A stretch of 64,000 bases of DNA, taken from Mantamonas sphyraenae STR306. Its lineage: Eukaryota > Protista > CRuMs. The notes under the pieces were generated by a model. That model was not told where the DNA came from, made no database searches, and saw only the letters and a list, made by a program, of their open reading frames with translations. The stretch covers positions 44,276-108,275 of the forward strand of contig JAPMXV010000077.1 in NCBI GenBank assembly GCA_026936335.1, written 5' to 3'. This document shows positions 16,282-46,050 of the stretch, piece after piece (the first letter of the stretch is position 1; each line of letters starts with the position of its first letter). Position numbers and translations under genes: made by a program.

Positions 16282-17457
16282 TCATGTGCTGTGCCCACCA
16301 TGTGCCTCCCGCATGTGGTCATACGTGGCCGCACTTGTGGTGAAGCCAATGCCACACTTGTAGCACACATGGGTGCCACACACACACGCCACATGGTTGC
16401 ACCCGCTCTCCTTGGCCAGCCCATGCCCACACGTGGGACACTGCCTCCACCCACTGCCTCGCCACAGCATCCCCAGCAGCTCATCCCCACGTCGGTTGTC
16501 CCTTGCCCACTGCTGGTACTTGCGACAGTCATGGTTGCCCCTTCCGTCGTCATCCCAGTGCGCCTTGCACCCGTGGCACCATGCCTTGCCACATCGCTCA
16601 CACTCGCATCGTGTGCTGCCCTGTCTCCGTGCCACCGCAGGATCCACCTTGCCCTCGCAGTCTGGCGTCACACACGCATGCCACTTGGCTGTGCGCACAT
16701 CCCACGCCAGCTTGGCCAGCGCCTCCTTGTCCCGCTTGCTCTGCAGCACCCTCATCGCCGTCTTGGTCGACACCCTCACCTCCTTCTTCTTCCCACCCTT
16801 CCCACCCGCCCAGCACATGCGACAGCGCAGAGGCATCATCCGCGACTCCACCTGCGCTGCAATGTCCATCCTGGCACAGTCCAGACACATCCTGTGCTCA
16901 CATCGGGTGCCCAGAAAGGCCATCCCACTCTGCTCCTTGCTCTCCTCGCACACAGCGCAAGGGTAGCAGTGGTGGAACTTGCACTGGTCTCCGTGCTTGC
17001 AATCCTCCCCATGCTTGCACACACGCACTCCCTCGGCCCCACACGCCTTGCATCCTCCCTTGCTCTTGCTCTTGCTCCTGTTCTTGCTCTTGCTCATCTC
17101 CACCTGTGTCTTGCTGCCTGCCCGTGTGCTCAGTGTCACTGTGCTCCGTCCCATGTGCACCTGCGTCACGCAGTGGTGGTCGCGGCATCGCTCTGGGCCG
17201 TACCGACACTTCTCGCCCCATGTGCACTTCTTGTCCTTGGTCGTCTTTGCCCTGCATGTCCCACACACCCTCATCCTCCTGGTGCTGCTGCTGCTGCTCT
17301 TGCGCTGTGTCTGCTCCTTGTCTGTGTCTGTGGTGCTGGTGGTTGTGCAGTGGTGGTTGCGACACTCCCCGGGGCCAAATCGGCACCGTGTGCCCCAGGT
17401 GCAGTTCTTCGGCTTGTCCGTCTGTGTTCCGCATGTGTTGCATGTGCGTGTGCTCAT
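16282..17457 (-). CDS. RBR-type E3 ubiquitin ligase with three N-terminal Cys/His zinc modules
   Basis: RING1: CAVC...CEHRMCLDC...CRMC. IBR: CVTPDC...CERCGKAWCHGCKAHW...HDC. RING2: CPTC...KESGCNHVACVCGTHVCYKC, with the catalytic GCxH. The N-terminus is MSTRTCNTC...CTWGTRCRFGPGECRNHHC plus two related copies. Confidence 0.85.
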   Translation of the reverse strand: MSTRTCNTCGTQTDKPKNCTWGTRCRFGPGECRNHHCTTTSTTDTDKEQTQRKSSSSSTRRMRVCGTCRAKTTKDKKCTWGEKCRYGPERCRDHHCVTQVHMGRSTVTLSTRAGSKTQVEMSKSKNRSKSKSKGGCKACGAEGVRVCKHGEDCKHGDQCKFHHCYPCAVCEESKEQSGMAFLGTRCEHRMCLDCARMDIAAQVESRMMPLRCRMCWAGGKGGKKKEVRVSTKTAMRVLQSKRDKEALAKLAWDVRTAKWHACVTPDCEGKVDPAVARRQGSTRCECERCGKAWCHGCKAHWDDDGRGNHDCRKYQQWARDNRRGDELLGMLWRGSGWRQCPTCGHGLAKESGCNHVACVCGTHVCYKCGIGFTTSAATYDHMREAHGGHST

Positions 17458-17790
17458 CCTGGAATTGAGTTGGTGTGGACATCGCATCGCCATCCTGGTC
17501 GCTTTTCCCTTTGCAGTGTGAGTGTGTGTGTGCAGTTGCGGAGAGTGCAGTGTTTGTGTGCAGTTGCCGATTTTCCTGGGGCCCTGTTCAAAAATCCGCC
17601 CACCGCCCACTGCCCCCACCCACCCAACCCAACCCAACCCATCCCAACACACACACCCAACCATGAGCACACGCACATGCAACACATGCGGAACACAGAC
17701 GGACAAGCCCCAGGACTGCACCCTGGGGCACACGGTGCCGATTTGGCGCCGAGAAGTGTCGCCACCACCACTGCACAACCACCAGCACCA
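17335..17790. repeat. Inverted repeat (arms ~17335-17457 and ~17663-17790) made of the shared 5' coding module of two divergent genes
   Basis: atgagcacacgcacatgcaacacatgcggaacacagacggacaagcc... is present on both strands, with ~205 nt between the two ATGs. Confidence 0.9.
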
Positions 17791-18689
17791 ACACACCCAA
17801 CACCGCCGCCGCCGCCGCCAAGACGACCAAGGCAAAGCCAGGAAGGAGCATGACCCACCGAAGCAGCAAGATCACCACGGAGACGAAGCGAGTGGCCAAG
17901 GCGCCGTTTGACCTGGTCTTCCTGGTCGACACGAGCACTTCCATGCAGGGAGATCGCATGTCTGCAGCCGCCGCTGGGTTCCGCGCCGTTGTGGGTGCCC
18001 TGCGCGATTGCGACCGGGTGAGCCTGTACACCTTTGCGGACAAGGTGAGGAGGGTGTTTGGGCCACTCAAGGCAGCCAAGGTGGATCTGGACAAGGCGGT
18101 GGGCACGCTGGAGGAGGCGTGTGGCAGCCATGGCAGTGGGGTGGAGCAGTTGCTGCAGGCACGGATGACGGATGAGGATCTGGCGAGGGTGTTGCGGGAT
18201 CAGGCAGGCAGCAGCGCCTTCCAGCCGGACGGATACACGGCGCTGTACGACGGCATGGACACGGTGATGGACGCCATGGCACAGTGGCAGACACGGAGCA
18301 ACGCAGGAAAGAGTGCAGGCGCCAACCTGGTGGTGATCACCGATGGGGAGGACACGGCGTCGGTGCAGGCTGGGGCCAGGGACGTGACAGCCAAGCTGGG
18401 GGCGAGTGGCATCCGCAACTTTCACATGCACTTTGTGGGAGTGGGGCTGGACAGGAGGACGGGGGCACGGTATGCCAGCATGTGCAAGGCGTGGACACAC
18501 ACGCGCATGTGGCACAGCAAGGACGCAGAGGATCTGGGCACTCATCTGAAGCGGATCAGCACGATGGTGGTGGAGCAGATGGTGCAGGAGGACAGAGAGG
18601 TCAAGGTGCATGTGCGCGAGCGACGCAGGCGCAAGGTGATTGGCCAGCGAAGGGTCAAGGACGATGGGGAGGGCAGTGGGAGGAAGTGA
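17663..18689 (+). CDS. Zinc-module-vWA protein; as assembled it has a +1 frameshift at ~17721-17723 (vWA ORF 17850-18689)
   Basis: MIDAS motif FLVDTSTSM...GYTALYD...LVVITDGED. Removing one C from ACCC restores CTWGTRCRFGAEKCRHHHC and reads in frame into the vWA ORF. Confidence 0.75.
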
Positions 18690-18959
18690 AGAAATGCAGG
18701 AGAATGGCACACACACACACACATTCATGCAGAGAGGTAGAGGGAGGAGGAGGTGGTGTCTATTTGGACACTTGCAATGGGTACGGATGGGCATGTGTGT
18801 GGAGATGGAAAACTGGGGTTGCGCCAATCGCCACACACACACCAACTGCACATGGAGTCCCAAATGGGAGGGTGAAGACATCACTTTTCCTCTGAGCACT
18901 CGGGTGTCTGTGTGCACACCACTCCATGTTCCACTGCCTCGACACACCCAGGGCACAGC

Positions 18960-19668
18960 ACCCACACACACACACACACACATGGACAATGGCCATATTG
19001 GCACCTGTTCGAGGCTATGGGGGGTGGCAACCAAAGCAGCGAGTCCAACGAAAAGGCCACCCACCGCCCCCTTGGATGGCGACGACGGCACGCAGTTGAC
19101 TGCATGCAGTGGCCATCACAAAAGACATGCGCGGTTGCCATGTGCACAGAGTCAGCCAACCCAACTGACAACCACCCACCATGTCCGGCAACCCATACCA
19201 GCGAGGATCCACTGCCTACCAGCGAGGATTGGCTGCTCACTACCGGCAGCAGGACGACAACCACCAGCGGACCATCCTGAGTCCCGGTGAGCGACGATGG
19301 GTCAACTACGCCATCCATGACCCATCCACGTCCCACAACCCTCGGGTAGAGCAGATGCTGCGCACCATCCAGGACCGACATCCCAACCTGCGACGATGAG
19401 GCAGCGCCCGCCACCCACACCCACCCACCCACACACCCAATGCACACCCACATTCCCCCAACACCCTCCACTCTCTGTAACCCATCCCAGTCCATGGGCA
19501 CACGTCCTCTTGCTCATGTCTTGATCCAACTTGTGGGACAGTGCACACACCACTGGAGGTGAAGGGCGAGACCACATCCATGTGGTCGTCCATTGGGTTC
19601 CACGTGTGCATAGATGGACACTTTGAATGGTGTGGGATTGCATAGAATGCACGAGTGCAGTTGGAGGA
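18960..19668. repeat. Direct repeat copy 1 (~700 bp; partner ~20935-21607), carries the MSGNPY microprotein
   Basis: Shared from (CA)n-atggaca..tggcca through catagaatgcacgagtgcagttggagga. Confidence 0.85.
19181..19399 (+). CDS. 72-aa microprotein (MSGNPY...DPSTSHNPRVEQMLRTIQDRHPNLRR)
   Basis: The paralog at 21141 keeps start, stop and frame despite a rewritten middle. A C/A-rich leader precedes the ATG, as in other genes here. Confidence 0.55.
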   Translation: MSGNPYQRGSTAYQRGLAAHYRQQDDNHQRTILSPGERRWVNYAIHDPSTSHNPRVEQMLRTIQDRHPNLRR

Positions 19669-19732
19669 CTGCACCCAAAATTGGACGACTGCCCGAGGCC
19701 CAGACGCGCCCACCCTTGTCCAGATTGTACCC

Positions 19733-20341
19733 ATGTGCAATTGCAAAAGCGGATGCAAGAACAAACGCTGCACGTGCGTTCGCAATGGTGATGTATGTGG
19801 CAACTCGTGCGGATGTACCAACTGCGAGAACAAAGGAGGAGGCTCTGTGGAGTCTTTGGAAGTTGCCCTCGGCGAGCTGAGCCTGTCGTCGAACAGCTCC
19901 TCAACTGAGTACGTCAAAGCGTACGCAAGCGTAAGTGGCAATAGAAAGATCTTTGAGATTCCCAAGGGCAAGGCATTGCCTGCAAAGGTGCCGGTGCAAC
20001 TGGATGACGAAGACCTTGTTGCCCACGTCAACGGGTCCTCGATGCACAAAAAGAACTGGAAGCAGTACTGGATCAAGATTGTTGAACTCAGCTGGCCATC
20101 CAAATGCCAAATCAAAGGCTGCGGCAACGAGGCTCAGGTCGGAGCACATGTGTACGTGAAGAGCGAACGGTACGTCATCGAGGCAAAGTCCGGAGACAAA
20201 GATCGGCTTCAGTTCATCCTCCCGACGTGCCGTTCATGCAACACCAACGGTGAGGGGAATTACTCGGAGTGGGTGGAACCCAACAAGGGGGCATGGGTTG
20301 CATCGTTGGAAGGCCATGACAACTGTTTTGATTGGTCCTGA
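19733..20341 (+). CDS. CXC/TCR-like Cys-rich domain fused to a His-Cys (HNH/beta-beta-alpha-Me-like) domain
   Basis: N-terminus: CNCKSGCKNKRCTCVRNGDVCGNSCGCTNCEN. C-terminus: NGSS...W..YW...C..GC...GAHV...ILPTCRSCN. A homolog lies at 61045-61365. Confidence 0.7.
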   Translation: MCNCKSGCKNKRCTCVRNGDVCGNSCGCTNCENKGGGSVESLEVALGELSLSSNSSSTEYVKAYASVSGNRKIFEIPKGKALPAKVPVQLDDEDLVAHVNGSSMHKKNWKQYWIKIVELSWPSKCQIKGCGNEAQVGAHVYVKSERYVIEAKSGDKDRLQFILPTCRSCNTNGEGNYSEWVEPNKGAWVASLEGHDNCFDWS

Positions 20342-20934
20342 CCAACAAGGACCGCCCGAAAGAACACGCTGTTCTCCACCGAGGAGGGTCCTCTGTGGCC
20401 ACCACCGCACATGCAAGCGCGACTCTCAAGTGCCACCTGAATCCACAACGCATGACCCCCAGTCCCCCTTCCACAATGTCCACCAGCACATCTCCACCAC
20501 TTCCATCCTATTCAGAACAGGTCACTGCCGGAAGAACTGGGCACAATCTACCTCACCTGCACCCTTGACGGGGTTTCCGGCCCTGCAAGCTCGCCCAGGC
20601 GGAATCGATATCTACGACACCACCAGCCAGTATCAGTTTAACATGTCTCTCGTGCGATGCCAACTGCCACCCAATGGGTGCACTACCAACGATCAGGAGG
20701 AGCACGCTCAGACTTGCGCAAAAAGATGCGAACGCCCGAACTACGAGATGAGCAATAGCCAGGAGCTTGGATAAACCCAGCGTGTGTGTATTACGAAGAA
20801 GGGGGTGGGAACGACGCTCATTCAAACCATTGTGTCAATGACGATGGACAATCGGCCACGGAAGCTGGCCGTCCACATTCCACTTTCACCCGTGCTGTTC
20901 CGTTCTCGCCGAGACTAAACTCTGGCACAGTGTA

Positions 20935-21607
20935 CACACACACGCACAAATGGACAGTGGCCAATGGTATCTGTTCGTGCGAGAGGCACGCTGGTCAGGC
21001 AATTCAACCCAGCAAGGCCACCCACCGCCCGCGGATGGCGACGACGGCACGCAGTTGACTGCGTGCAGTGGCCATCACAAAAGACAGGGTGCGGCTGCCA
21101 TGTGCACAGAGTCAGCCAACCCAACTGACAACCACCCACCATGTCCGGCAACCCATACCACACCACATTCGGGTGCATTTCCCACCAGCCAGGAGCGGCT
21201 GCTCAATACCGGCAGCAGAACCACTATCGGACTGAACGAGTCCACTACCCCTTCCGTGACCCATCCACGTCCCACAACCCTCGGGTAGAGCAGATGCTGC
21301 GCACCATCGAGGACCGACATCCCAACCTGCGACGATGAGGCAGCGCCCACCACCCAACCACACACACACACACACAATGCACACCCACTTGCCCCCAACC
21401 CCCAACACCAACACCCTCACTCTCTCTGTTACCCGTGTCACCCCGTCCCTGCTCATGTCTTGATCCAACTTGTGCGATGTGCACACACCACTAGAGGTGA
21501 AGGGGCGAGACCACATCCATGTAGTCATCCATTGGGTTCGATGTGTGCATGGATGGACACTTTGAATGGTGTGGGATGCATAGAATGCACGAGTGCAGTT
21601 GGAGGAG
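20935..21607. repeat. Direct repeat copy 2 (partner ~18960-19668)
   Basis: Shares the same span as copy 1. Confidence 0.85.
21141..21338 (+). CDS. 65-aa microprotein, paralog of 19181-19399
   Basis: Same N- and C-termini as the paralog, with an in-frame length difference. Confidence 0.55.
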   Translation: MSGNPYHTTFGCISHQPGAAAQYRQQNHYRTERVHYPFRDPSTSHNPRVEQMLRTIEDRHPNLRR

Positions 21608-21799
21608 TTCACCCACTGTACAGCTGCTGCTGCAGGCGGCTCACCACGTCCAAAGGACATTTTGTGGGAATTCTGTTTAAGGTTCGAACGAGACATGCGT
21701 TGTGATCCACACACAATGACATCACACAATCACACACACACTGCTGGCTTCCTTGTGAACGTGTCTCCCTTGTGATCCCCTCCCCCTCCCTCCCAAGTG

Positions 21800-23371
21800 T
21801 CAACGCTGCTTGCACGCCAGGGCCAGATGAACCACTCCTGCATCGTCCTGAAACGACGTCCGGGCCAGCGCCCATTGAGAATCACCGGTGATCTCCACGC
21901 CTGCCACCGCATCGGTGACCACACACGAGGGCAACCGCACACGCAAGGACCCACGACGGCGTTCCAGACCGAGAAGCACCCTGAGCTGCTTCAAATTGGC
22001 GGATGCATCCACCTTGTGCCAGCTCTGCGATCCGGGGTGGTGCGACTGGTACGACATGGAGTGTTTGACCAGAACCTGCTGCGCCTCACCCGCCACGGGG
22101 ATGCCCTGCACTTGGATCTGCTCACCACTGCCCTCGATGGAACTGTTGCCATACACAGCCTTGATTGTGTACGTCCCCGTTTGGTGCACCGTCCACTGGA
22201 CCACACAGCGTGACGCCTTTGCACACTCCACCGACCCGGCAAATCCGTCCATCGTCACACGCAGTGATGACAACACAATCTTGGGTCCGGGTCCCTCGAT
22301 GTCCACCACAATGCGCGGCCATTGGAACGCGTTGCGTACCACGCGAACACGCATGCGCAGATGGGTGGCGGTCAGCTGCACCATCCACTCTGGGAATGTC
22401 ACCTTGACCAGACTCCATGGACGGTAGCTGCTCCGTGAGTCTCCCCTCTGCATCCACACAACCCCGTTGGAGGATTGCACAAACATCTTGTCATTGAGTC
22501 TTGGGAGGGCATGGCCGGTGCCATCGAGCAGAGATACGGCCCTCTGATTGGACACTCTGTTCCCTTGGACGACATAATCCCCCACAATAATTCCGTAGAT
22601 CTGCACCCTCGGTGGCACAATGCTCGTTGTGTTGTCCATGTGCACCAACACTCTGCCCGCCGATCGACTGTTTCCAAGCAGGCCAAGTTGAACATCAGGA
22701 TCGGACGACTCCCACAGACCCAGCCACCTGACATCGTGCCGCACCGCCTCAAATTCCGACCCAATCCACGTCACCGTGGCATTGTTCACATCCACAACCC
22801 ACGCTGCAATGCCCTCCAACTCTGTCCAAGCCAGGTAGCGGCCGGCGGAAAGCTCACGCAGAAAAACATGGGTGGATTCGTCGATGAACCTGCGTCCGTC
22901 GACGTCGCCAGCCACAGTCGTCCAGCGAACAGACTTGCATTCGATGTGATTGAGCCGGGTTTGTCGCAGCTGCACCAGGGTGATGGGAGCGTGTGAGCGG
23001 GGAACGCCTTGTCTTCCGCGCGAAAACGCTGCGAGCACGGTGTCGTCCCACAACGGCGTCAAACGGTCCAGCACGTCCTTGATGTCACACGGCGACGACG
23101 ATGATGATGATGATGATGCACCCTCCCAAGACACAGGCGTCACCGAGTTGTCCTTCCATGACCATAGGGCGAGTTCATGGTTGGTGTCGGTGACCAGTGC
23201 GTTGTGAAAGGCTGCAAACTGCCTCAGAACACGTTGGTGTTTCCACATCTCCACACTCTCTTTCACATCCACTGTCATCTGCAGAGGGGTTTCGTCCAGG
23301 TGCGTCTCCCACGGCAACGCCAGGGCAATCGGCACCACGGCGATCAGAAGAACAAGCGCCGTGAGTTTCAT
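21800..23371 (-). CDS. Secreted protein with beta-rich repeats and a filamin/Ig-like segment
   Basis: Signal peptide MKLTALVLLIAVVPIALA. The segment VVQWTVHQTGTYTIKAVYGNSSIEGS resembles a filamin-type Ig fold. Confidence 0.6.
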   Translation of the reverse strand: MKLTALVLLIAVVPIALALPWETHLDETPLQMTVDVKESVEMWKHQRVLRQFAAFHNALVTDTNHELALWSWKDNSVTPVSWEGASSSSSSSSPCDIKDVLDRLTPLWDDTVLAAFSRGRQGVPRSHAPITLVQLRQTRLNHIECKSVRWTTVAGDVDGRRFIDESTHVFLRELSAGRYLAWTELEGIAAWVVDVNNATVTWIGSEFEAVRHDVRWLGLWESSDPDVQLGLLGNSRSAGRVLVHMDNTTSIVPPRVQIYGIIVGDYVVQGNRVSNQRAVSLLDGTGHALPRLNDKMFVQSSNGVVWMQRGDSRSSYRPWSLVKVTFPEWMVQLTATHLRMRVRVVRNAFQWPRIVVDIEGPGPKIVLSSLRVTMDGFAGSVECAKASRCVVQWTVHQTGTYTIKAVYGNSSIEGSGEQIQVQGIPVAGEAQQVLVKHSMSYQSHHPGSQSWHKVDASANLKQLRVLLGLERRRGSLRVRLPSCVVTDAVAGVEITGDSQWALARTSFQDDAGVVHLALACKQR

Positions 23372-24330
23372 GTTGGGTCCGGCAGGGCAGAGCAGGGGCA
23401 CGGTGGGCATGTCATGGGGTCCCACCATGTTACCTGCAGGTACGATGATGCAAATGTTTTCCTCTCTAATTCTTTGCCTGACAATTGCAAACGTGGCTGC
23501 AAAAAAGGGAAGATCTGCGGTACTGCGCCAACCCAGAGTGCAACAACGCCTCTTTGAGACCAATGCAGACGATGATGGAACATGCGTTCCAATTCGTGTG
23601 TGGATAGACACATCCCAATGGTTTTCGTGCGCCGTGGTACACGAGGGGGGATGTGAACGTGTGTGCAGCTGCCCAAGCGAAAGCACCCTCCATCCAGGGT
23701 GAGGCGTCCCTGAGCACCATCCGGAAGGTGCCATCCACATGCTTCTGGGATCGCAGCCATGGCTTTCTCGGTGTGCAGTTGCCCCTAGACCTCCACCGCC
23801 AGAATTCCTGATTCCCCACACCGCACCCGCCAGACGACGAAAACGGGCACTTGAATGGCACGGGATGGTCCCAAACGACGCATGTGTTCGATGGGAGCCC
23901 ATGCATGCGGTTCATGGCATGACACATGTGCCTGTACATTGTCCAGGTGGAACGGGTGGGTGGAACAAGGAGATGGCTTTGGGCACGACGATGGGTTTGT
24001 TGAACGGCCAATTGGGCGCGGTGTTGAGTCGCACGTTGGCGGAGAACAACAGAGATATCCATTGTGGATGACCATGGATGAGGGAATATCAGCAGCTGCG
24101 GTGCGCAGTGGGGACTACGCTTATCCTTTACCCGTGGGTTTCGTGGAGGGAGGGCTTCATTGAGAGTTGTGGAGAAAGGCACACTGAGAGAGTGTGTTTT
24201 GGTGTGTGTTCAATGAGATACAAGGGGTGGTGAGGTGGGGAAGGGTCATTGTTGTTGGCAAAAAACCCTCTCGCGTCACACTTGATCTTTGGCTGCTTGC
24301 TCACGCGGCCGACCTACAGACACGTTCAAG

Positions 24331-26454
24331 ATGAGTGAAGGACTGAGCGATGAGGAATGGAGAAATTTGCTGCATGGCGGTGATGAGCAAGCAATCAGTG
24401 AGGCCCTGGAACGTGCTGGCAGAGTAAGTGTGGTTGATTTGAGGGGCATCCCTTCCATGGTGAGGTCATGAGTGGCATCAGACTGGGAAACTGACAGCAC
24501 AATGCAGGAGCTGAACCTCCAACGCAACCAGATCGGGGACGAAGGGGCAGCTGCGTTGGGCACAGCACTGGCACAGAACAGCACATTGAAGGAGCTGCAC
24601 CTCGGTGGCAACGAGATCGGTGTCGAAGGGGCAGCTGCGTTGGGCACAGCACTGGCACAGAACAGCACATTGCAGGGGCTGTACCTCGGTGGCAACAAGA
24701 TCGGCGACGAAGGGGCAGCTGCGTTGGGCACAGCACTGGCACAGAACATCAAATTGAAGGAGCTGGCCCTCGGTGGCAACAAGATCGGCGACGAAGGGGC
24801 AGCTGCGTTGGGCACAGCACTGGCACAGAACATCAAATTGAAGGAGCTGGCCCTCGGTGGCAACAAGATCGGGGACGAAGGGGCAACTGCGTTGGGCACA
24901 GCGCTGGCACAGAACAGGACCTTGCAGGCGCTGGACCTCGGTGGCAACAAGATCGGCGACGAAGGGGCAGCTGCGTTGGGAACGGGACTGGCACAGAACA
25001 GCTCATTGCAGCAGCTGAACCTCAGTTTCAACCAGATCGGTGTCGAGGGAGCAGCTGCGTTGGGAACGGGACTGGCACAAAACAGCACATTGCAGAAGGT
25101 GGACCTCGGAGGCAACCAGATTGGCGCCGAAGGGACAGCTGCGTTGGACACAGCACTGGCACAGAACATCAAATTGAAGGAGCTGGCCCTCAGTGGCAAC
25201 AACATCGGCGACGAAGGGGCAGCTGCGTTGGTCACGGGACTGGCACAAAACAGCACATTGCAGAAGCTGAACCTCAGTCACAACAAGATCGGCGACGAAG
25301 GGGCAGCTGCGTTGGGAACGGGACTGGCACAAAACAGACCATTGCAGAAGCTGGACCTCAGAGGCAACCAGATTGGCGCCGAAGGGGCAGTTGCGTTGGT
25401 CACGGGACTGGCACAGAACAGCTCATTGCAGAAGCTGTACCTCAGTTACAACAAGATCGGCGACGAAGGGGCAGCTGCGTTGGGAACGGGACTGGCACAA
25501 AACAGAACATTGCAGGAGCTGGACCTCGGAGGCAACCAGATTGGCGCCGAAGGGGCAGTTGCGTTGGTCACGGGACTGGCACAGAACAGCACATTGCAAA
25601 AGCTGTACCTCAGTTACAACAAGATCGGCGACGAAGGGGCAGCTGCGTTGGGAACGGGATTGGCACAGAACAGCTCATTGCAGCAGCTGAACCTCAGTTT
25701 CAACCAGATCGGTGTCGAGGGAGCAGCTGCGTTGGGAACGGGACTGGCACAAAACAGCACATTGCAGAAGGTGGACCTCGGAGGCAACCAGATTGGCGCC
25801 GAAGGGACAGCTGCGTTGGGCACAGCACTGGCACAGAACAGAACATTGCAGAAATTGCTGATTCCCTCTATCCCATCGCTGACACGCGACCATCTGGCTC
25901 GCAATACCCAAAAGGCAACTGAATTTGTCAACTCTGTCCGCAATGGTGATTTGGTGACCATGCAAGAACTATTTGCATGGGGCGTCCACGTTGATGCGCT
26001 GGTGGTCGAACGTGCAGCCACCCCGTTGCTGCTCGCTGTTGAAGCAAATCAAGCAAAATCTGCGAGAGTCTTGTTGGAGCATGGTGCCACTGTGACCCCT
26101 GCTGTCAGGGAATGGACGGAGGAAGTGGGCTGGTCACCCCAGTGGCACTTTCTCTGGAGCCCACAGGTGGACAAACGAATGGAGACGGCCATGGTGATGA
26201 ACATGGAGGAGCGGGAAGTGATGTTTGACGCAGGGAGCATGGCTGAGTACGAGCCCACGGCTGAGTGGTGCACCCAGCCAGACGAGGTGTTAACGAGGGT
26301 CATGGGATGGCTGGCACGACTACCTGAGGACCAATCATCGACGTCAGCTGGTGGCAATCAAGCACACAAGCGCCAGCACGACGGCGACGACGACGTAGTC
26401 CACACTACAGGCAACGATACCAGCACGCACGATACCAAACGACATCGTGTGTAG
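24331..26454 (+). CDS. LRR(16 x 28 aa, RI/NLRC3-like)-ankyrin-F-box-like protein 1; probable intron 24424-24507
   Basis: 84-bp repeats encode xLxLxxNxIGDEGAAALGxxLAQNxxLQ. Ankyrin motif: TPLLLAVEANQAKSARVLLEHGA. C-terminus: WSPQWH...QPDEVLTRVMGWL. GTAAGT..ACTGAC..GCAG removes an in-frame TGA. Confidence 0.85.
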
Positions 26455-27070
26455 GCAAAGTCTCCTTGCAAGCGGTCACACCTTGTCTTCTGTGCTCCAT
26501 CCACCAGGAGTGTAGCACATGGCAAGCGTTGGTTGGGATGTGGAAATGTGGCAGTGGTGTGTGGCTGGTGTCGACGACCAGAAAGACGCCGGAAGATTGC
26601 GCGGGGCTCCTGCTGTGCCACAGTACGCACGCAGCAAGGGGAATCCTCCAGGGAGGCAGATGGTATCCTGCAAAGTATGGGAGGGTAACGGGCCAGCAGG
26701 TTTGGCATGTTGTGGTGACACCCGGGGCAGCGGCAACTTCCGCCAGGACCAGTGCCCTGCGCTGCGTGTTTATGCAGATACAACACCAACGAACAGAACC
26801 AAATGGTCATGGGCATGCACACACGAAAACGAGCCCCCGCACATTGTTTGTGGTTGCATCGAGGACGACGCAGCATTTGGGTGGGAATTCCACCCTTGGA
26901 TTGCGACTGCATGCCGGGAAGACCCCGTGGTTGTTGCGATCCCGATGCATGCAGTTTGCCAACACACTGTACTTGATGGTGATTCCACTGGCAAGGATGA
27001 CAGTGGTACAACACAGCACACAAAGAGCAAGAGAGACCACACCACAACCCAACACACCCAAGAGCAAGAG

Positions 27071-27397
27071 ATGAGCACACGCGTTTGCCAGACTTGCCAC
27101 CAGACCACAGACCGAACCCAGGATTGCCGCTATGGCCAGCGATGCCGGTATGGGCCCGAGCGATGCCGGTTCCACCACTGCCACCACCACCACCACCGGT
27201 CACGATGGAGTGGTGAGCACAGCCACCGGACGCAGCCGCAGCAGCAGAGACACACGAAGAAGCAGCGGGAGAAGAAGCAGGAGGCAGGAGACGAGGAGCA
27301 GGCAGAGGGAGCAATGACCGAGCAGCTGATGCAGGTGGTCGTCACCGTCAGCACAGCTGTGGTCACCAGCATCCTCCGATCACGCGGATGGATCTGA
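27071..27397 (+). CDS. 108-aa zinc-module protein with a His/Gln/charged linker and a hydrophobic C-terminal helix
   Basis: MSTRVCQTC...CRYGQRCRYGPERCRFHHC, the same leader as in the RBR and vWA genes. It has a C/A-rich 5' leader and is duplicated at 30807. Confidence 0.65.
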   Translation: MSTRVCQTCHQTTDRTQDCRYGQRCRYGPERCRFHHCHHHHHRSRWSGEHSHRTQPQQQRHTKKQREKKQEAGDEEQAEGAMTEQLMQVVVTVSTAVVTSILRSRGWI

Positions 27398-27661
27398 GCC
27401 AACCTGCCCCCCCCCTGGACGACACACGTGGACGAGGAGAGGAGAAGGAGAGACTGGGAGAGAGAGATGGAAGAGAGAAGTGAGCGGGTGAGATGACATT
27501 CTCTCTTTTTGTCCCTTTCGCTTGTCTCTTGGTTCCCCGCACCACCCCCAATGTGTGACAATGACACCAACCAAGGGATGCAAAAAAGAAAGAACCCACC
27601 CACAGATGTGTGCGTGGGGTGGGGTAGGGTGTGTGTGTGTGTCGGTGCTGGTCATGGTGGA

Positions 27662-27874
27662 TCACCATCCATTGTCTCGGGCCATCCGCTGCAGACCTCG
27701 CACCAGCTGCACTCGGTCATCCCCCGACGCTCGCCCAGGGTCGATGTGGGCGTTGGCCAGAAAGGCACGGTTGCCTCGGGCCAGGTTGGGAGCTCCGTCT
27801 GCGTTGATGGCCATCCACCGGTAGTCACCGCCGGTGGTCCAGACTCGGGCTCGTCGCTGTCGCTCGTTGGGCAT
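27662..27874 (-). CDS. 70-aa microprotein (MPNERQRR...ARDNGW)
   Basis: The two substitutions I can see versus the copy at 31413 are both synonymous in this frame (CGA/CGC, CGT/CGC). It has a C/A-rich leader, and a third diverged copy keeps the start and the GW-stop end. Confidence 0.6.
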   Translation of the reverse strand: MPNERQRRARVWTTGGDYRWMAINADGAPNLARGNRAFLANAHIDPGRASGDDRVQLVRGLQRMARDNGW

Positions 27875-28566
27875 GTTGTGTGTGTTTGCTGTGGGTTGGG
27901 GTTGGGTAAGCGGGGTGCGCTGGTGTCATTGTGGGTCCCATGGTGCCATTTTGTACCCGTCAGGTGCCATCCACATTCTTTTGTGATCGCAGCCATGGCT
28001 TTCTCGGTGTGCAGTTGCCCCTCGACCTCCACCGCCAGAATTCCTGATTCCCACACCCCACCCGCCAGACGATGAAAACTGACACTTGGATGGCATGGTG
28101 TGGTCTCACACGACGCATGTGTTCCATGGAAGCCCATGCATGCGGTTTATTGCATGCCACATGTGCCTGTGCATTGTCCAGGTGGATCGGGTGGGAGGAA
28201 CAAGGAGATGGCTTTGGGCACGACGATGGGGTTCTTGAACGGCCAATTGGGCGCGGTGATAAGTCACAGGATGGCGGGGAACAACAATGGTAACCATTGT
28301 GGATGACCATGGATGAGGGAATATCAGCAGCTGCGGTGCGCAGTGGGGACTACGCTTATCCTTTCACCTGTGGGTTTCATGGTGGGAGGGCTTCATTGAG
28401 AGTTGTGGAGAAAGACACACGCAGAGAGAGAGTGTGTGTGTGTGTTCAGTGACGTACAGGGGGTGGTGAGGTCGGGAAGGGTCATTGTTGTTGGCTAAAA
28501 ACCCTCTCGCGTCACACTTGATCTTGCGCTGCTTGCTCACGCGGCCGACGTACAGACACGTTCAGG

Positions 28567-30063
28567 ATGAGTGAACGATTGAACAGTGAGGAATGGATAA
28601 ATTTGCTGCATGGCGGTGATGAGCAAGCAATCAGTGAAGCCCTGGCAAGTGCTGGCAAAGTAAGTGTGGTGGATTTGAAGGGCATCCCTTCCGTGGCGAG
28701 TTCTTGAGTGGCATCAGACTGGGAAACTGACACCACATTGCAGGAGCTGGACCTCGAGGACATCATGATCGGTGTCGAAGGTGCAGCTGCGTTGGGCACA
28801 GCACTGGCACAGAACAGCACATTGCAGGAACTTAACCTCAAGGAGAACCAGATCGGGAACGCAGGGGCAGTTGCATTGGGAACGGGACTGGCACAGAACA
28901 ACACCTTGCAGGTGCTGCTGCTCGGACGCAACAAGATCGGCGACGAAGGTGCAGCTGCACTAGGCACAGTACTGGCACAGAGCAGCTCATTGCTGTGGCT
29001 GGACCTCAATGACAACCAGATTGGGGACGAAGGCGCAGCCGCGTTGGGCACAGGACTGGTACAGAACAGCAAATTGAAGGAGCTGGTGCTCAGACGCAAC
29101 AATATCGGGAACGCAGGGGCAGCTGCGTTGGCCACAGGACTGGCACAGAACAGAACATTGCAGGGGCTGGTGCTCGGACCCAACAGCATCGGCGACAAAG
29201 GGGCAGCTGCGCTAGGCAGAGTACTGGCACAGAACAGCTCATTGCTGTGGCTGGACCTCTGGAGCAACCAGATTGGTGACGAAGGAGCAGCTGCGTTGGG
29301 TCAAGGACTGGCACAGAACAGCACATTGCAGGAGCTGTGGCTCGGTGGCAACCAGGTCGGGGACAAAGGAACAGCTGCGCTGGCCTCCAATCTGGCACAG
29401 AACTGCACGTTGCAGAAGCTGGGCCTCGAGACCAACCAGATCGGCGACGAAGGGGCAGCTGCGTTGGGTCAAGGACTGGCACAGAACAGCACATTACAGG
29501 GGCTGGATCTCATGAACAACCAGATTGGGGACGAAGGGGCAGCTGCGTTGGGTCAAGGACTGGCACAGAACAGAACATTGCAGGAATTGCGGAGTTCTTT
29601 CTTGATCCCATCTCTGACAAGCAACAATCTGGCTCGCAATACCAAAAAGGCATTTGTCTTTGCTGACTCTGTCTGCGGTGGTGATTTGGTGACCATGCAA
29701 GAACTCCTTGCATGGGGCGTCCACGTTGATGTGCTGGTGGGCGAACGTGCAGCCACCCCGTTGCTGCTCGCTGTTGAAGCATTTCAAGAAAAAGCTGCGA
29801 GAGTCTTGTTGGAGCATGGTGCCACTTTGACCCCTGATGTCAGGGAGTGGATGGATGATGTGGGCTGGTCACCCCAGTGGCACTTTCTTTGGAGCCCACA
29901 GCTGGACAAGCAAATGGAGACGGCCATGGTGATGAACATGGAGGAGCGGGAAGTGATGTTTGGCGCAGGGAGCATGGCTGAGTACGAGCCCACGGCTGAG
30001 TGGTGCACCCAGCCAGACGAGGTGTTAACGAGGGTCATGAGCTGGCTCAGCGCGACTGCCTGA
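28567..30063 (+). CDS. LRR(10 x 28 aa)-ankyrin-F-box-like protein 2; probable intron 28660-28743
   Basis: Paralog of 24331-26454 with a different LRR number and different surface residues. A net +1 change near 30048 removes the basic tail. Confidence 0.85.
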
Positions 30064-30806
30064 GGACCAGTCATCGAAGCCAGCTGGTGGCAATCAAGCA
30101 CGCAAGTGCCAGATCGATGACGACGACGACGTAGTCCACACTACAGGCAGCGATACCAGCACGCACGATACCAAACGGCAGCGTGTGTAGGCAAAGTCTC
30201 CTTGCAAGCGGTCACACCTTGTCTTCTGTGCTCCATCCACCAGGAGTGTAGCACATGGCAAGCGTTGGTTGGGATGTGGAAATGTGGCAGTGGTGTGTGG
30301 CTGGTGTCGACGACCAGAAAGACGCCGGAAGATTGCGCGGGGCTCCTGCTGTGCCACAGTACGCACGCAGCAAGGGGAATCCTCCAGGGAGGCAGATGGT
30401 ATCCTGCAAAGTATGGGAGGGTAACGGGCCAGCAGGTTTGGCATGTTGTGGTGACACCCGGGGCAGCGTCAACTTCTGCCAGGACCAGTGCCCTGCGCTG
30501 CGTGTTTATGCAGATACAACACCAACGAACAGAACCAAATGGTCATGGGCATGCACACACGAAAACGAGCCCCCGCACATTGTTTGTGGTTGCATCGAGG
30601 ACGACGCAGCATTTGGGTGGGAATTCCACCCTTGGATTGCGACTGCATGCCGGGAAGACCCCGTGGTGGTTGCGATCCCGATGCATGCAGTTTGCCAACA
30701 CACTGTACTTGATGGTGATTCCACTGGCAAGAATGACAGTGGTACAACACAGCACACAAAGAGCAAGAGAGACCACACCACAACCCAACACACCCAAGAG
30801 CAAGAG

Positions 30807-31145
30807 ATGAGCACACGCGTTTGCCAGACTTGCCACCAGACCACAGACCGAACCCAGGATTGTCGCTATGGCCAGCGATGCCGGTATGGGCCCGAGCGAT
30901 GCCGGTTCCACCACTGCCACCACCACCACCACCGGCCACGATGGAGTGGTGAGCACAGCCACCGGACGCAGCCGCAGCGGCAGCAGCAGCAGCAGAGACA
31001 CACGAAGAAGCAGCGGGAGAAGAAGCAGGAGGCAGGAGACGAGGAGCAGGCAGAGGGAGCAATGACCGAGCAGCTGATGCAGGTGGTCGTCACCGTCAGC
31101 ACAGCTGTGGTCACCAGCATCCTCCGCTCACGCGGATGGATCTGA
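30807..31145 (+). CDS. 112-aa zinc-module protein, near-identical to 27071-27397
   Basis: Differs mainly by an in-frame 12-nt poly-Q expansion. Confidence 0.65.
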   Translation: MSTRVCQTCHQTTDRTQDCRYGQRCRYGPERCRFHHCHHHHHRPRWSGEHSHRTQPQRQQQQQRHTKKQREKKQEAGDEEQAEGAMTEQLMQVVVTVSTAVVTSILRSRGWI

Positions 31146-31412
31146 GCCAACCTGCCCTCCCTGGACGACACACGTGGACGAGGAGAGGAGAAGGAGAGAC
31201 TGGGAGAGAGATGGAAGAGAGAAAGTGAGGATTCTCTCTTTTTATCCCTTTTGGCTTGTGTCTTGGTTCCCCGCACCACCCCCAATGTGTGGCAATGACA
31301 CCAATCAAGAGATGAAAAAAAAAAGAAAGAACCCACCCACAGATGTGTGCGTGGGGTGGGGTAGGGTGTGGGTGTGGGTGTGGGTGTGTGTGTTGGTGCT
31401 GGTCATGGTGGA

Positions 31413-31625
31413 TCACCATCCATTGTCTCGGGCCATCCGCTGCAGACCTCGCACCAGCTGCACTCGGTCATCCCCCGACGCTCGCCCAGGGTCGATGTGG
31501 GCGTTGGCCAGAAAGGCGCGGTTGCCTCGGGCCAGGTTGGGAGCTCCGTCTGCGTTGATGGCCATCCACCGGTAGTCACCGCCGGTGGTCCAGACTCGGG
31601 CGCGTCGCTGTCGCTCGTTGGGCAT
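31413..31625 (-). CDS. 70-aa microprotein, same protein as 27662-27874
   Basis: Only synonymous differences from the first copy were seen. Confidence 0.6.
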   Translation of the reverse strand: MPNERQRRARVWTTGGDYRWMAINADGAPNLARGNRAFLANAHIDPGRASGDDRVQLVRGLQRMARDNGW

Positions 31626-32178
31626 CTTGTGTGTGTTTGCTGTGGGTTGGGGTTGGGTAAGCGGGGTGCGCTGGTGTCATTGTGGGTCCCATGGTGCCAT
31701 TTTGTACCCGGCAGGTGCCACCCACATGCTTCTGGGATCGCAGCCATGGCTTTCTTGGTGTGCAGTTGCCCATCGACCTCCACCGCCAGAATTCCTGATT
31801 TCCCACACCCCACCCGCCAGTCGACGAAAACGGACACTTAGGTAGCATTGGGTGGTCTCACACGACGCACATGTTCCATGGGAGCCCATTCATGCAGTTC
31901 ATTGCATGACACATGTGTCTGTGCATTGTCCAAGTGGAACGGGTGGGTGGAACAAGAAGATGGCTTTGGCCACGACGATGGGTTTGTAGAACGGTCGTGG
32001 TGGTAGCGGATGCACGTGTGCATGTTGGAATCATGGAATGGTGTGGTTTTGGTGGAACTCGGGTGCAGTCCTCGGAGTCGATCGACTGCACTTCTGGCCA
32101 GTTCCCTTTTGCACGGACGGATTGCGCCGACTCACTCAACACAACTACCATCCACACGACCAACCCATCCAACAAGCG

Positions 32179-33357
32179 ATGAGCACTCGCGTTTGCCAAA
32201 CTTGCCACCAGACAACAGACCGAGCCCAGGATTGCCGCTTTGGCGAGCAATGCCGCTTCGGCCCCGAACGATGCCGCTACCATCACTGCTACCACCGGCG
32301 TGGATGGCGTAGTGAGTGCAAACACCGCAGGGAGCACCAAAGCTACAAGGAGTGGCAGATGGAGCAGCCCTGGCGACGGAAGCAGGATCAGCGAGCACGG
32401 GACAACGAGCGGGAGGCACAGGACACCGAGCAGGCAAGGAAGATCCAGCTGCTGTATGAGGCTCCCAATGGCCGCACCGGTGCCATTCTCCTCACAGAGA
32501 ACAGCACCATCGCCACGCTGCACACATCACTTGCTGACCGCGTGAGGATTCCCGAGGACAGGCTGTGGATGACACACCATGGGAAGCCGCTGCGTCCGTC
32601 GACATCGATATCAATCCACGACTACAACATCGATGAGGGAAGCATCGTCCGCATCATGCTGCGCAACTCGTGGCACCACGAGCCGCATGACACCGAGGAG
32701 ACAGAGACAACCACGACACCGGCAGCCACACAATTCACATGTCCAATCTGCGACGACGACGAGGTCGACCCGTCCACCGAGGCCACGGCGATGGGATGTG
32801 GTCACACGTTCTGCCACCAGTGCTGGTCGAAACACATCGAGGCACGCCTGGGCGAGGCACCCCAGATCCGCTGTCTCGAGAGTGGCTGCGGAATGGTGGT
32901 GGACAGTGGTACGGTCAGCCGTGTGGCAGATCAGGAGCTGTGTGACCGCTACGAGCACATCTGCCTCGGCAAGGCTCTGGACGAGCTGGGATTGCTGTAC
33001 TGCGCCAACACAGAGTGCAGCAACGCCTTTGAGGCCGACGCTGGCGACAGCTACGTCACCTGTGCCGCCTGTGGACACAGCACATGTGTGTCATGTCGTG
33101 CAGCGTGGCACACCGGGATGACATGTGCTGAGGCCAGCGATGCATCGTCCATCCAGGATGTGGCATCCCTGAAGACCATTGCCCAGACGACAAAGGCATG
33201 TCCCGAGTGCAACGAACGCATCGAGAAGAACGGTGGGTGCAAGCACATGACGTGCAAGTGGTGTCAGCACGAGTTCTGCTGGGGCTGTTTGCAGCCATAC
33301 ACACGCACAGCAAGGAGAGGTCTCAGTGTACAATGTCTGGACACGTGTACAGTGTAG
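32179..33357 (+). CDS. Zinc-module-Ubl-RBR E3 ubiquitin ligase
   Basis: Leader: MSTRVCQTC...CRYHHC. Ubl: IQLLYEAPNGRT...IPEDRLWMTHHGKPL...HDYNIDEGSIVRIMLR, with no diGly. RING1: CPIC..CGHTFCHQC..CLESGC. IBR: CANTEC..CAACGHSTCVSCRAAWH..C. RING2: CPEC..IEKNGGCKHMTCKWCQHEFCWGC. Confidence 0.9.
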   Translation: MSTRVCQTCHQTTDRAQDCRFGEQCRFGPERCRYHHCYHRRGWRSECKHRREHQSYKEWQMEQPWRRKQDQRARDNEREAQDTEQARKIQLLYEAPNGRTGAILLTENSTIATLHTSLADRVRIPEDRLWMTHHGKPLRPSTSISIHDYNIDEGSIVRIMLRNSWHHEPHDTEETETTTTPAATQFTCPICDDDEVDPSTEATAMGCGHTFCHQCWSKHIEARLGEAPQIRCLESGCGMVVDSGTVSRVADQELCDRYEHICLGKALDELGLLYCANTECSNAFEADAGDSYVTCAACGHSTCVSCRAAWHTGMTCAEASDASSIQDVASLKTIAQTTKACPECNERIEKNGGCKHMTCKWCQHEFCWGCLQPYTRTARRGLSVQCLDTCTV

Positions 33358-33596
33358 CACAGGAGCAGTGAGGAGGAAATGGTGTGTCTGGCTGCGGATG
33401 GAAGAGAGAATGGAGCGGGTGAGGTGATGCATTCTCTCTTTGTTGTCACTCTTGCTTGTGTCTTGTTCCTCCGCACCCCAATGTGTGGCAATGACCAACC
33501 AAGGTATGAAAAAAGAAAGAACCCACCCACAGATGTGTGCGTGGGGTGGGTTGGGGTGTGTGTGTGTGTGTGTGTGTTGGTGCTGGTCATGGTGGA

Positions 33597-33782
33597 TCAC
33601 CATCCATCCAAGCCGGAGACACGGAAGTCATCCCTCCACACCTCAGACACTCGCCCTGGCCAATGCCCTCGGAAGATGTGAGAATGGGCCAGAGAGGGAA
33701 ATCTGTCTGCGTTGGTGCTCCTGCTCCGGTCTCCACGGCTGGTGGTCCAGGATGGGGCGTGTCGCTGTCGCTGGTTTGGCAT
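33597..33782 (-). CDS. 61-aa microprotein, diverged member of the MPN...GW family
   Basis: MPNQRQRH..WTT...NAD..P.LA...DGW*. The flanks are the same as for the other two copies. Confidence 0.45.
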   Translation of the reverse strand: MPNQRQRHAPSWTTSRGDRSRSTNADRFPSLAHSHIFRGHWPGRVSEVWRDDFRVSGLDGW

Positions 33783-34342
33783 CTTGTGTGTGTTTGCTGT
33801 GGGTTGGGGTTGGGTAAGCGGGGTGCGCTGGTGTCATTGTGGGTCCCATGGTGCCATTTTGTACCCGGCAGGTACCACCCACATGCTTCTGGGATCGCAG
33901 CCATGGCTTTCTCGGTGTGCAGTTGGCCCTCGTCCTCCACCGCCAGAATTCCTGATTCCCCACACCGCACCCGCCAGTTGACGAAAACGGACACTTGGAT
34001 GGCATGGTATGGCCCCACACGTCGCATGTGATCCATGGGAGCCCATGCGTGCGGTTCATGGCATGACACATGTGCCTGTGCATTGTCCAGGTGGATCGAG
34101 TGGGTGGAAGCAGACAAATGTCCCCACCGCCATGTCCCTTTGTGCACCACCACCCTCTCCCCCCTTGACACTGCCTCTGTGCATTGAATACACTGCACAT
34201 GGCGGTCAATCACATGTGCCTGCACACAAGGCTGCACATGCAGTGTGTGTGTGCAGTCGACTGTGCCCAGTTGAACATTAAAAGGATCCAAGCGACCTCC
34301 CGCTGCGACAAACCAACCATCCCAACCCATCCAACCCAATCC

Positions 34343-43674: not shown

Positions 43675-43707
<33 letters not shown>

Positions 43708-44909: not shown

Positions 44910-44947
<38 letters not shown>

Positions 44948-45002
44948 ACCCACATCATCCTCATCATCAACAACACCATACCCATCCTCATCATGGTACG
45001 TG

Positions 45003-45035
<33 letters not shown>

Positions 45036-46012: not shown

Positions 46013-46050
<38 letters not shown>

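What the first reader, a model, noticed from the sequence alone, without database searches (positions are those of the whole stretch)
16282..33357. One portable ~37-aa zinc leader is grafted onto four unrelated C-termini in five genes
Seen: MSTRxCxTCxxxTDxxxxC-x5-C-x6-C-xx-HHC starts the RBR ligase (17457, minus strand, with two further internal copies), the vWA gene (17663), two ~110-aa proteins (27071, 30807) and the Ubl-RBR ligase (32179). Similarity ends right after HHC. The motif looks like a CCCH finger with an extra CxxC and Cys. Inference: it is a shared targeting or sensing module, possibly RNA-binding or homotypic, that links ligases, a vWA adaptor and short decoy or regulator proteins into one pathway. 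I do not recognise this architecture set from described systems.
Basis: partly seen in the sequence, partly recalled or inferred. Interest (0 to 1): 0.85.

Follow-up and report, generated by a model that had tools for sequence, protein, structure and literature searches.

The report
Extended CCCH finger spread by duplication
A small zinc-finger domain that likely binds RNA, and would hold a second zinc, is present seven times in five neighbouring genes of a eukaryote, two of them predicted ubiquitin ligases; local gene duplication likely explains most of the sharing, and no shared pathway is shown.

Summary
The motif is real: six in-frame copies plus a vWA copy broken by one extra C (17721-17723). 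That base is probably a window error or private allele: all 6 listed contigs crossing it lack it, though none proves this for the vWA allele. Eight Cys/His are invariant and the leader is under purifying selection (short vs Ubl-RBR dN 0.07, dS 0.54). Its second half is a Regnase/ZC3H12-type CCCH finger (PDB 2n5k, E 2e-4) keeping both RNA-stacking aromatics and both glycines. The extra CxxC and H-x-C would form a second zinc site; 0 of 22 hits among 1.84 billion representatives have them. 'Four unrelated C-termini' is overstated. Two carriers are RBR ligases. The two short genes are one tandem duplicate and are paralogues of the Ubl-RBR gene, sharing about 80 residues and the 3' flank. The vWA leader is a 128-nt, 94% identical inverted copy of the adjacent RBR leader. 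CCCH+IBR and ubiquitin+IBR architectures are already catalogued. Verdict: new variant of a known kind, a lineage-restricted extended CCCH finger on likely RNA-binding RBR ligases, with one real graft (vWA). The shared-pathway idea is untested. Interest 0.4.

The parts
16282..17457 (-). RBR ligase gene 1 (391 aa from the MSTR ATG; further in-frame ATGs lie upstream): three fingers, then RING1-IBR-Rcat with S-G-C-N-H at the catalytic position
   Evidence: IBR 30.6 bits, cut-off 24.3; RNF216, E 7e-5
17347..17457 (-). finger copy 1 of RBR gene 1
17170..17280 (-). finger copy 2 of RBR gene 1
16966..17064 (-). finger copy 3 of RBR gene 1; most diverged, exact x5-x5-x3 spacing, His in place of both stacking aromatics, directly abuts RING1
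17458..17662 (.). 205-nt spacer between the head-to-head RBR1 and vWA starts; not self-similar; likely a bidirectional promoter (inferred)
17663..17790 (+). vWA leader: 128-nt inverted copy of 17331-17457 (93.75% identity), beginning exactly at the ATG; one extra C in the run 17721-17723 breaks the frame in the window
17850..18689 (+). vWA domain ORF (279 aa) with D-T-S-T-S, T and D MIDAS-type residues; in frame with the second half of the leader
   Evidence: (VWA_2 49.3 bits, cut-off 27)
27071..27397 (+). short gene 1 (108 aa): finger 27071-27181, linker homologous to the Ubl-RBR linker, mildly hydrophobic 30-aa tail
30807..31145 (+). short gene 2 (112 aa): finger 30807-30917; tandem duplicate of short gene 1 (finger identical in protein)
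32179..33357 (+). Ubl-RBR ligase gene (392 aa): finger 32179-32289, ubiquitin-like domain about aa 90-163, RBR about aa 176-378 with G-G-C-K-H at the catalytic position
   Evidence: ARIH1, E 2e-27
24998..31994 (+). tandem duplication (24998-28242 vs 28730-31994, 89.5%) carrying an LRR-ankyrin gene plus a short finger gene in each unit
33373..34109 (.). 3' flank of the Ubl-RBR gene, 79-81% identical to the 3' flanks of both short genes (27466-28200, 31185-31952)

Best explanation
The 37-residue motif is a selected zinc-finger domain, a Regnase/ZC3H12-type CCCH finger with four extra invariant Cys/His that would bind a second zinc, and it likely binds single-stranded RNA as the targeting end of two predicted RBR ubiquitin ligases, while the vWA and short genes likely got it by local duplication with those ligase genes. 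Shown: the sequence, the eight invariant ligands, purifying selection, the match of residues 14-36 to the Regnase-1 finger, and the duplication geometry. Inferred: zinc site B = C19, C25, C32, H36, as in the CCCH finger; zinc site A = C6, C9, H35, C37, a strap tying the N-terminus to the end of the finger. The aromatics at 21 and 27 would stack on bases, so that the ligase reaches RNA-bound substrates, as RING-type RNA-binding ligases with CCCH fingers do. History (inferred): an old finger-RBR fusion repeated its finger internally; a recent inverted duplication or gene conversion between the head-to-head RBR1 and vWA starts gave both the same leader; a tandem copy of the Ubl-RBR gene replaced Ubl-RBR with a 30-aa tail and was duplicated again with an LRR gene. 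The ligase-less copies could compete for the same RNA, but that is not shown.
For: Eight ligands and two glycines invariant in the 6 aligned copies and kept in the vWA copy. Leader dN/dS: short1 vs Ubl-RBR 0.07/0.54, short2 vs Ubl-RBR 0.07/0.63; synonymous sites near or at saturation between the RBR1/vWA group and the short/Ubl-RBR group (dS 1.5 or more, dN 0.3-0.45). Best PDB sequence hit is the Regnase-1 finger, E 2e-4. PMC8136824 defines C-X5-C-X5-C-X3-H with Tyr-Gly at +2/+3 in both loops as the RNA-stacking element; the copies have F/Y/W at both sites in 6 of 7 (His in copy 3), Gly in 7 of 7, and net charge +2 to +8. 18 of 22 library hits carry a Pfam CCCH family at E<=0.001. Duplication geometry. 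CCCH-bearing RNA-binding ubiquitin ligases are a known class (PMC5707401), and zf-CCCH+IBR is a catalogued architecture (PMC4327156 Fig. S5M).
Against: No copy tested reaches a Pfam CCCH gathering score (best 18.3 bits vs 24.6; RBR1 copy 1 has no hit at all). The second loop is x6, not x5, in 6 of 7 copies. The two-zinc arrangement rests on ligand counting only: both AlphaFold2 models were low confidence (pLDDT 59.7 and 46.0). RNA binding, zinc content and ligase activity are untested. The vWA fusion is broken in the window, and no vWA-type contig crosses the site with 31 letters on both sides. The duplication boundary falls exactly on the ATG and 16 nt past the last Cys, neater than a random duplication would be and compatible with selection for the module. 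RBR1 copy 1 vs vWA shows 6 non-synonymous to 1 synonymous change, so selection on that pair is not shown.
Confidence: 0.6

Rival explanations
1. One reading: the finger is a portable address tag, kept on ligases, a vWA adaptor and ligase-less decoys so that all meet on one RNA target or on each other in one, possibly defence-related, pathway.
For: The leader is far better conserved between the two RBRs (57%) than their RBR parts (20%). The short genes keep the finger under purifying selection. The RBR1/vWA copy boundaries match the domain. The neighbourhood is rich in LRR-ankyrin, BTB-BACK and CHAT-AAA-TPR genes. Loose ends in the sequencing runs point to further copies.
Against: Every sharing has a local duplication explanation; only the vWA fusion is a clear graft. 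No expression, localisation or interaction data exist. The architecture set was not found in any other genome, though several of those searches are insensitive.
Confidence: 0.15
2. The eight-ligand domain has left RNA binding and is a protein-, ubiquitin- or ADP-ribose-binding module or an auto-inhibitory cap of the RBR, like RING0 of parkin.
For: The four extra ligands are absent from all 22 library hits. RBRs commonly carry inhibitory or ubiquitin-binding accessory domains (PMC3940038). Copy 3 abuts RING1 and has lost both aromatics.
Against: Aromatic-Gly pairs and basic charge are kept in 6 of 7 copies. The domain is also kept on proteins with no RBR. No PBZ (PF10283) or ubiquitin-binding finger family was hit at E<=10 (HMMER's filters drop most weak matches).
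Confidence: 0.15
3. Only the RBR-linked fingers work; the vWA and short copies are by-products of a rearranging locus, and the vWA frameshift is real decay.
For: Frameshift in the window's vWA copy; 6:1 non-synonymous to synonymous change against RBR1 copy 1; many recent duplications in the window; weak codon-usage score of the short tails (+0.06 vs about +0.2 for controls).
Against: All 6 listed contigs crossing the C run have one base fewer. None of the six amino-acid changes touches a ligand, and three give the residue seen in the short/Ubl-RBR copies. Short-gene leader dN/dS is about 0.13. The vWA MIDAS residues are intact.
Confidence: 0.1

Closest known systems
Regnase-1 / ZC3H12A-C CCCH zinc finger (PDB 2n5k, 7ndj; PMC8136824)
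   Same: C-X5-C...C-X3-H core, aromatic-Gly at +2/+3 in both loops, basic; best PDB sequence hit, E 2e-4.
   Different: Second loop x6 in 6 of 7 copies; invariant extra CxxC in front and H-x-C at the end; no PIN/NYN nuclease; sits at the N-terminus of RBR, vWA and short proteins.
RNA-binding ubiquitin ligases with CCCH fingers (Makorin 1/2; Roquin recalled) (PMC5707401)
   Same: CCCH finger or fingers plus an E3 domain in one chain.
   Different: Those are single-RING ligases; here the E3 is an RBR with its own catalytic Cys, and the finger is a different, extended type.
zf-CCCH+IBR, RWD+zf-CCCH+IBR and ubiquitin+RING+IBR architectures (PMC4327156, Fig. S5M)
   Same: The pairing of a CCCH finger or a ubiquitin-like domain with an RBR is already catalogued in a survey of 78 eukaryote genomes (labels decoded from a font-shifted PDF text layer).
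   Different: Which species carry them could not be read. No CCCH+ubiquitin+IBR row and no vWA row appears in that list, and the finger type is not specified.
ARIH1/Ariadne and parkin RBR ligases
   Same: Ubl-RBR matches ARIH1 (E 2e-27) and parkin (E 6e-12); Ubl before RBR as in parkin; catalytic Cys-x-His in both genes.
   Different: The chain ends about 15 residues after Rcat, so there is no Ariadne domain; no RING0; N-terminal finger instead. RBR1 is very divergent (best hit RNF216, E 7e-5).

Membership tests
ZC3H12/Regnase-type CCCH finger | C1-X5-C2 and C3-X3-H spacing | tested here: met
   7 of 7 copies, the vWA copy read in two frames
ZC3H12/Regnase-type CCCH finger | C2-X5-C3 spacing | tested here: not met
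   x5 in 1 of 7 (RBR1 copy 3), x6 in 6 of 7
ZC3H12/Regnase-type CCCH finger | Stacking aromatics at C1+2 and C2+2, each followed by Gly | tested here: met
   F/Y/W at both sites in 6 of 7, His in copy 3; Gly in 7 of 7 (definition)
ZC3H12/Regnase protein family | Finger linked to a PIN/NYN ribonuclease | tested here: not met
   No such Pfam family in any carrier
Pfam CCCH families (PF00642, PF18044, PF18345, PF14608, PF25585) | Score at or above the gathering cut-off | tested here: not met
   5 isolated in-frame fingers scanned (short2 is identical to short1): best 18.3 bits vs 24.6, E 0.002; one had no hit
CCCH fingers in general | Binds zinc and single-stranded RNA | not testable with these tools
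   Needs biochemistry; fold models low confidence
RBR E3 ligase | RING1-IBR-Rcat order | tested here: met
   Ubl-RBR: Pfam RING plus two IBR stretches, ARIH1 E 2e-27. RBR1: two IBR stretches above cut-off; RING1 seen only as a Cys/His pattern aligned to the Ubl-RBR RING1
RBR E3 ligase | Catalytic Cys followed by His two residues on in Rcat | tested here: met
   G-C-K-H and G-C-N-H; RBR1 aligned to the RNF216 Rcat (role from PMC3940038)
RBR E3 ligase | Ubiquitin thioester formation and transfer | not testable with these tools
   Needs an in vitro assay
vWA domain | Pfam vWA above cut-off with DxSxS...T...D MIDAS (motif recalled) | tested here: met
   VWA_2 49.3 bits vs 27; residues present; no PDB sequence hit at E<=0.01
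PBZ (PAR-binding) finger, PF10283 | C-x5-C-x6-H-x5-H (recalled) | tested here: not met
   Third ligand is Cys and the last spacing is x3; no PF10283 hit at E<=10

The most novel reading that the evidence does not exclude
An undescribed two-zinc RNA-binding domain, a CCCH finger strapped by a second CxxC/HxC site, is used in this lineage as a shared RNA sensor: on two RBR ligases as effectors, on a vWA adaptor co-transcribed from the same bidirectional promoter, and on tail-anchored ligase-less decoys that tune the response. Together they would form an RNA-triggered ubiquitin defence circuit inside a cluster of LRR and NLR-like genes.
Probability: 0.12. Interest if true: 0.75.

Novelty: new variant of a known kind. 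Interest (0 to 1): 0.4.

Why it matters
If the second zinc site is real, this is a new small domain type built on the shortest CCCH finger, and at 37 residues it is easy to test by NMR, metal analysis and RNA selection. The locus also captures domain shuffling in progress: a domain-sized inverted copy between head-to-head genes, and ligase-less tandem paralogues that kept the targeting end under selection. RBR ligases directed by RNA, with built-in competitors, would extend RNA-binding ubiquitin ligases beyond the RING types studied so far. Without the pathway, it is a lineage-specific domain variant of modest general interest.

Tried and rejected
Whole-genome search: no genome is held, so copies outside the window could not be listed. 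Word-seeded protein searches with the finger alignment (longer proteins), RBR1 and the vWA ORF returned nothing; as not even other RBRs or vWAs scored, these blanks carry little weight. ESM Atlas gave no answer. Viral contigs: no relative by tblastn among 34 pattern matches; 0 matches to a specific pattern; 6 matches to the loose x6 core pattern, none with the CxxC in front or the aromatic pattern, all in stop-rich frames and read as chance; 0 for the x5 pattern. Metagenome scan: 2 loci out of 594 or more pattern matches, both 9-11-residue chance matches. Prokaryote genome contigs were not scanned. P0021 matched profile positions 1-36 but lacks CxxC and HHC. AlphaFold2 models (pLDDT 59.7, 46.0) gave no fold match in Foldseek or VIA-align; this says nothing about the fold. 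Homodimer prediction with zinc: no verdict. No RNA holder listed. Run X4 has no cover on RBR1, the vWA leader or most of Ubl-RBR; not used. The 184-codon in-frame extension upstream of the short genes and the 47- and 69-codon extensions of the RBR genes score negative for codon usage, but so do the Cys-rich fingers themselves, so the starts are not settled; the shared similarity beginning about 35 nt before the ATG favours MSTR. A donor-like GTGAG lies just after the finger in the short and Ubl-RBR genes; splicing there gives short1 no longer frame (27 or 82 codons). A suspected ubiquitin-like ORF in the repeated flank had no Pfam support and a negative codon score. Earlier findings of the scan: none. 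Literature searches with no paper holding all terms. The RBR family review PMC1868946 is not held.
Full report
Setting. The window is eukaryotic in content: RBR ligases, BTB-BACK, LRR-ankyrin, CHAT-AAA-TPR and CXC genes, about 57% GC, few introns. No genome is held for it. It is full of recent tandem duplications. The organism was not identified.

The observation. A six-frame scan finds the pattern C-x2-C-x7/9-C-x5-C-x5/6-C-x2-H-H-C six times in frame: three in the minus-strand RBR gene (17457, 17280, 17064), and at 27071, 30807 and 32179. It appears 0 times in each of 100 third-order Markov resamples; the DNA pattern for the x6 core gives 5 window matches against 0 in 100 shuffles. In the alignment of the six, C6, C9, C19, G22, C25, G28, C32, H35, H36 and C37 are invariant. 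An HMM built from them finds nothing else in the window except two half-matches at 17663 and 17712. These halves are the vWA copy: it has one more C in the run 17721-17723 than its RBR1 twin, so the frame from 17663 stops at 17911, while the second half of the finger lies in the frame of the vWA ORF.

Is the frameshift real? Four runs of one study hold this DNA with scattered differences from the window; they are not independent of each other and may relate to the window's source. Of the contigs listed (10 more not shown), 6 of 6 that cross the C run have one base fewer. Three of them carry RBR1-type letters and so are the twin. Three carry vWA-type letters; one of these matches the window without any other difference, but it has depth 2.8. 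None of the three has 31 letters on both sides of the site. In one search, contigs of three runs laid on the RBR1 arm continue into the vWA linker. An assembly error or private allele is therefore likely but not proven.

How the copies are related. (a) RBR1 and vWA are head to head, 205 nt apart, and their first 128 nt are an inverted repeat of 93.75% identity. It begins exactly at the ATG and ends about 16 nt after the last Cys codon. dS is 0.05, with 6 non-synonymous changes and 1 synonymous: a very recent copy or gene conversion. At three of the six changed sites the vWA copy has the residue of the short and Ubl-RBR copies, so the direction is open. (b) The two short genes lie in a tandem duplication (24998-28242 vs 28730-31994, 89.5%), 99% identical over the 600 nt upstream, and their fingers are identical in protein. 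They count as one event. (c) The short genes are paralogues of the Ubl-RBR gene. They align to residue 78/86 at 52%; the part after the finger alone is reached by 2 of 2000 protein shuffles and 1 of 1000 codon shuffles; similarity starts about 35 nt before the ATG; and the 3' flanks are 79-81% identical over about 750 nt. Homology ends just before the Ubl domain begins (residue 90). (d) The two ligases are both RBRs, 20% identical in the RBR but 57% in the finger; synonymous sites between their fingers are saturated, which fits an old fusion under strong constraint or an old transfer. So 'five genes, four unrelated C-termini' reduces to one clear graft (vWA), one tail replacement and one possible older transfer.

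Selection. Short vs Ubl-RBR fingers: dN 0.07, dS 0.54-0.63. Between the two groups dN is 0.3-0.45 and dS 1.5 or more, with all eight ligands kept and synonymous variation in 5 of the 8 ligand codon columns (copy 3 was left out of this table because of its gaps). The motif is a protein domain, not repeat noise.

What the domain is. The profile's best PDB sequence match is the Regnase-1 finger (2n5k, E 2e-4, profile positions 14-36); ZC3H12C follows at E 0.047. PMC8136824 (passages and section 16 read) gives that finger as C-X5-C-X5-C-X3-H, with Tyr at +2 in both loops stacking on RNA bases and Gly at +3 required for the fold. Here F, Y or W stands at both sites in 6 of 7 copies (His in copy 3), Gly in 7 of 7, and the charge is positive. 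The second loop is one residue longer in 6 of 7, and no isolated finger reaches a Pfam cut-off (5 scanned; best 18.3 vs 24.6 bits). It works like a ZC3H12 finger, by inference, but is not a member of the ZC3H12 protein family. The remaining four invariant residues (C6, C9, H35, C37) are exactly one more tetrahedral set, hence the proposed second zinc site. This is ligand counting only: AlphaFold2 gave pLDDT 59.7 and 46.0.

How widespread. HMMER over 1.84 billion representatives gave 22 hits at E<=0.001. 18 of 22 carry a Pfam CCCH family, and 0 of 22 have a CxxC before such a core or an HHC end. Calibration: held-out copies at about 55% identity score 49-60 bits, above the 35 needed, but copy 3 scores 14-15 and would be missed. 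So close relatives are absent from this library, while distant ones are not excluded; protist proteomes may be thinly covered. Viral and metagenome scans gave only chance matches. Loose ends in the runs point to more copies in the same species: one further finger variant that keeps the C-x2-H-H-C end (run X2), and a different continuation after the short-type linker in 5-6 contigs of X1 and X2.

The partners. Ubl-RBR has Pfam ubiquitin, RING and IBR hits above cut-off and matches ARIH1 at E 2e-27; RBR1 has IBR above cut-off and matches RNF216 weakly. Both keep the catalytic Cys-x-His (role from PMC3940038, passages). The vWA ORF passes VWA_2 and keeps MIDAS-type residues (motif recalled). The short proteins end in a mildly hydrophobic stretch (Kyte-Doolittle 1.5 over 19 residues) followed by basic residues, a possible tail anchor (inference). 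One contig of run X4 spans short gene 2 from 222 nt before its ATG to 84 nt past its stop with 2 gaps. X4 is labelled DNA by guess, but it also holds a joint that skips exactly the 84-nt GT..AG intron predicted in the LRR gene, so it may be RNA-derived; that is a weak hint that the finger is transcribed.

Comparison with what is known. CCCH-bearing RNA-binding ubiquitin ligases are an established class (PMC5707401, passages). In the supplement of PMC4327156 (legend passages and part 6 of file 3 read; file 1 not searchable), the list of IBR architectures from 78 eukaryote genomes includes zf-CCCH+IBR, RWD+zf-CCCH+IBR, ubiquitin+IBR and ubiquitin+RING+IBR; the labels were decoded from a font-shifted text layer, species could not be read, and no vWA row appears. 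RBR genes also expand by recent tandem duplication in plants (PMC2904391, passages). PMC6118397 and PMC3670738 (passages) do not contain the word CCCH. Searches for papers joining CCCH, RBR/IBR and vWA or protist terms found none holding all terms, and searches listed 1-2 general papers each. I found no description of the eight-ligand finger in these searches, which cover open-access text only; the RBR family review PMC1868946 was not available.

Verdict. The motif is real, selected and apparently an undescribed extension of a known RNA-binding finger. Its spread over five genes is mostly local duplication in a fast-changing locus, with one real graft onto vWA whose window copy is frameshifted. 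Most likely mechanism (0.6): RNA-targeting end of RBR ligases, with paralogous by-products that may have taken on regulatory roles. Shared pathway or decoy system 0.15; non-RNA binding module 0.15; debris 0.1. Novelty: new variant of a known kind. Interest 0.4.

Noticed in passing
window 24424-24507 and 28660-28743: Both LRR-ankyrin genes have an in-frame TGA near their start inside a GTAAGT..AG interval of 84 nt; one contig of run X4 joins 24423 to 24508 exactly, supporting an intron and hinting that X4 is RNA-derived.
   Followed up: partly
window 17751 and 30995 (loose ends in runs X1, X2): Contigs leave the window sequence here with other continuations: a further finger variant keeping C-x2-H-H-C, and another tail after the short-type linker. 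More family members likely exist elsewhere in the genome.
   Followed up: partly
window 17831-17980: Runs X1-X3 each hold at least two vWA versions, one with 12 differences in 150 nt: a second vWA paralogue or a divergent allele.
   Followed up: no
window 35662-41488: NLR-like gene: weak CHAT and AAA_16 hits in one ORF, a long TPR array (129-nt unit) in an overlapping ORF of another frame; frame break near 36596-36642.
   Followed up: no
window 46905-50865: About 26 near-identical 144-nt tandem units inside a 1678-aa ORF (46647-51683) with no Pfam hit.
   Followed up: no
window 10617-15979: Tandem pair (90% identical) of BTB-BACK-like genes; each has a frame break between an MSTIA-starting ORF and the main ORF at a CA run, probably an intron.
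   Followed up: no
window 1760-4822 and 5563-8325: Two long paralogous minus-strand ORFs (1020 and 920 aa) with no Pfam hit at E<=0.01.
   Followed up: no
window 19733-20341: 202-aa ORF starting with a single TCR/CXC-like cysteine cluster (E 0.0014, below cut-off).
   Followed up: no
window 42980-46708: 1242-aa minus-strand ORF with a C-terminal DUF3825 hit above cut-off.
   Followed up: no
window 27323-27397 and the matching end of short gene 2: The short proteins end in a moderately hydrophobic stretch followed by basic residues, resembling a tail anchor.
   Followed up: partly
window 23721-24007, 27466-28242, 31185-31994, 33373-34109: A repeated intergenic element of up to about 750 nt follows each tandem finger gene and precedes the LRR genes; its ORFs have no Pfam support and negative codon scores.
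   Followed up: partly
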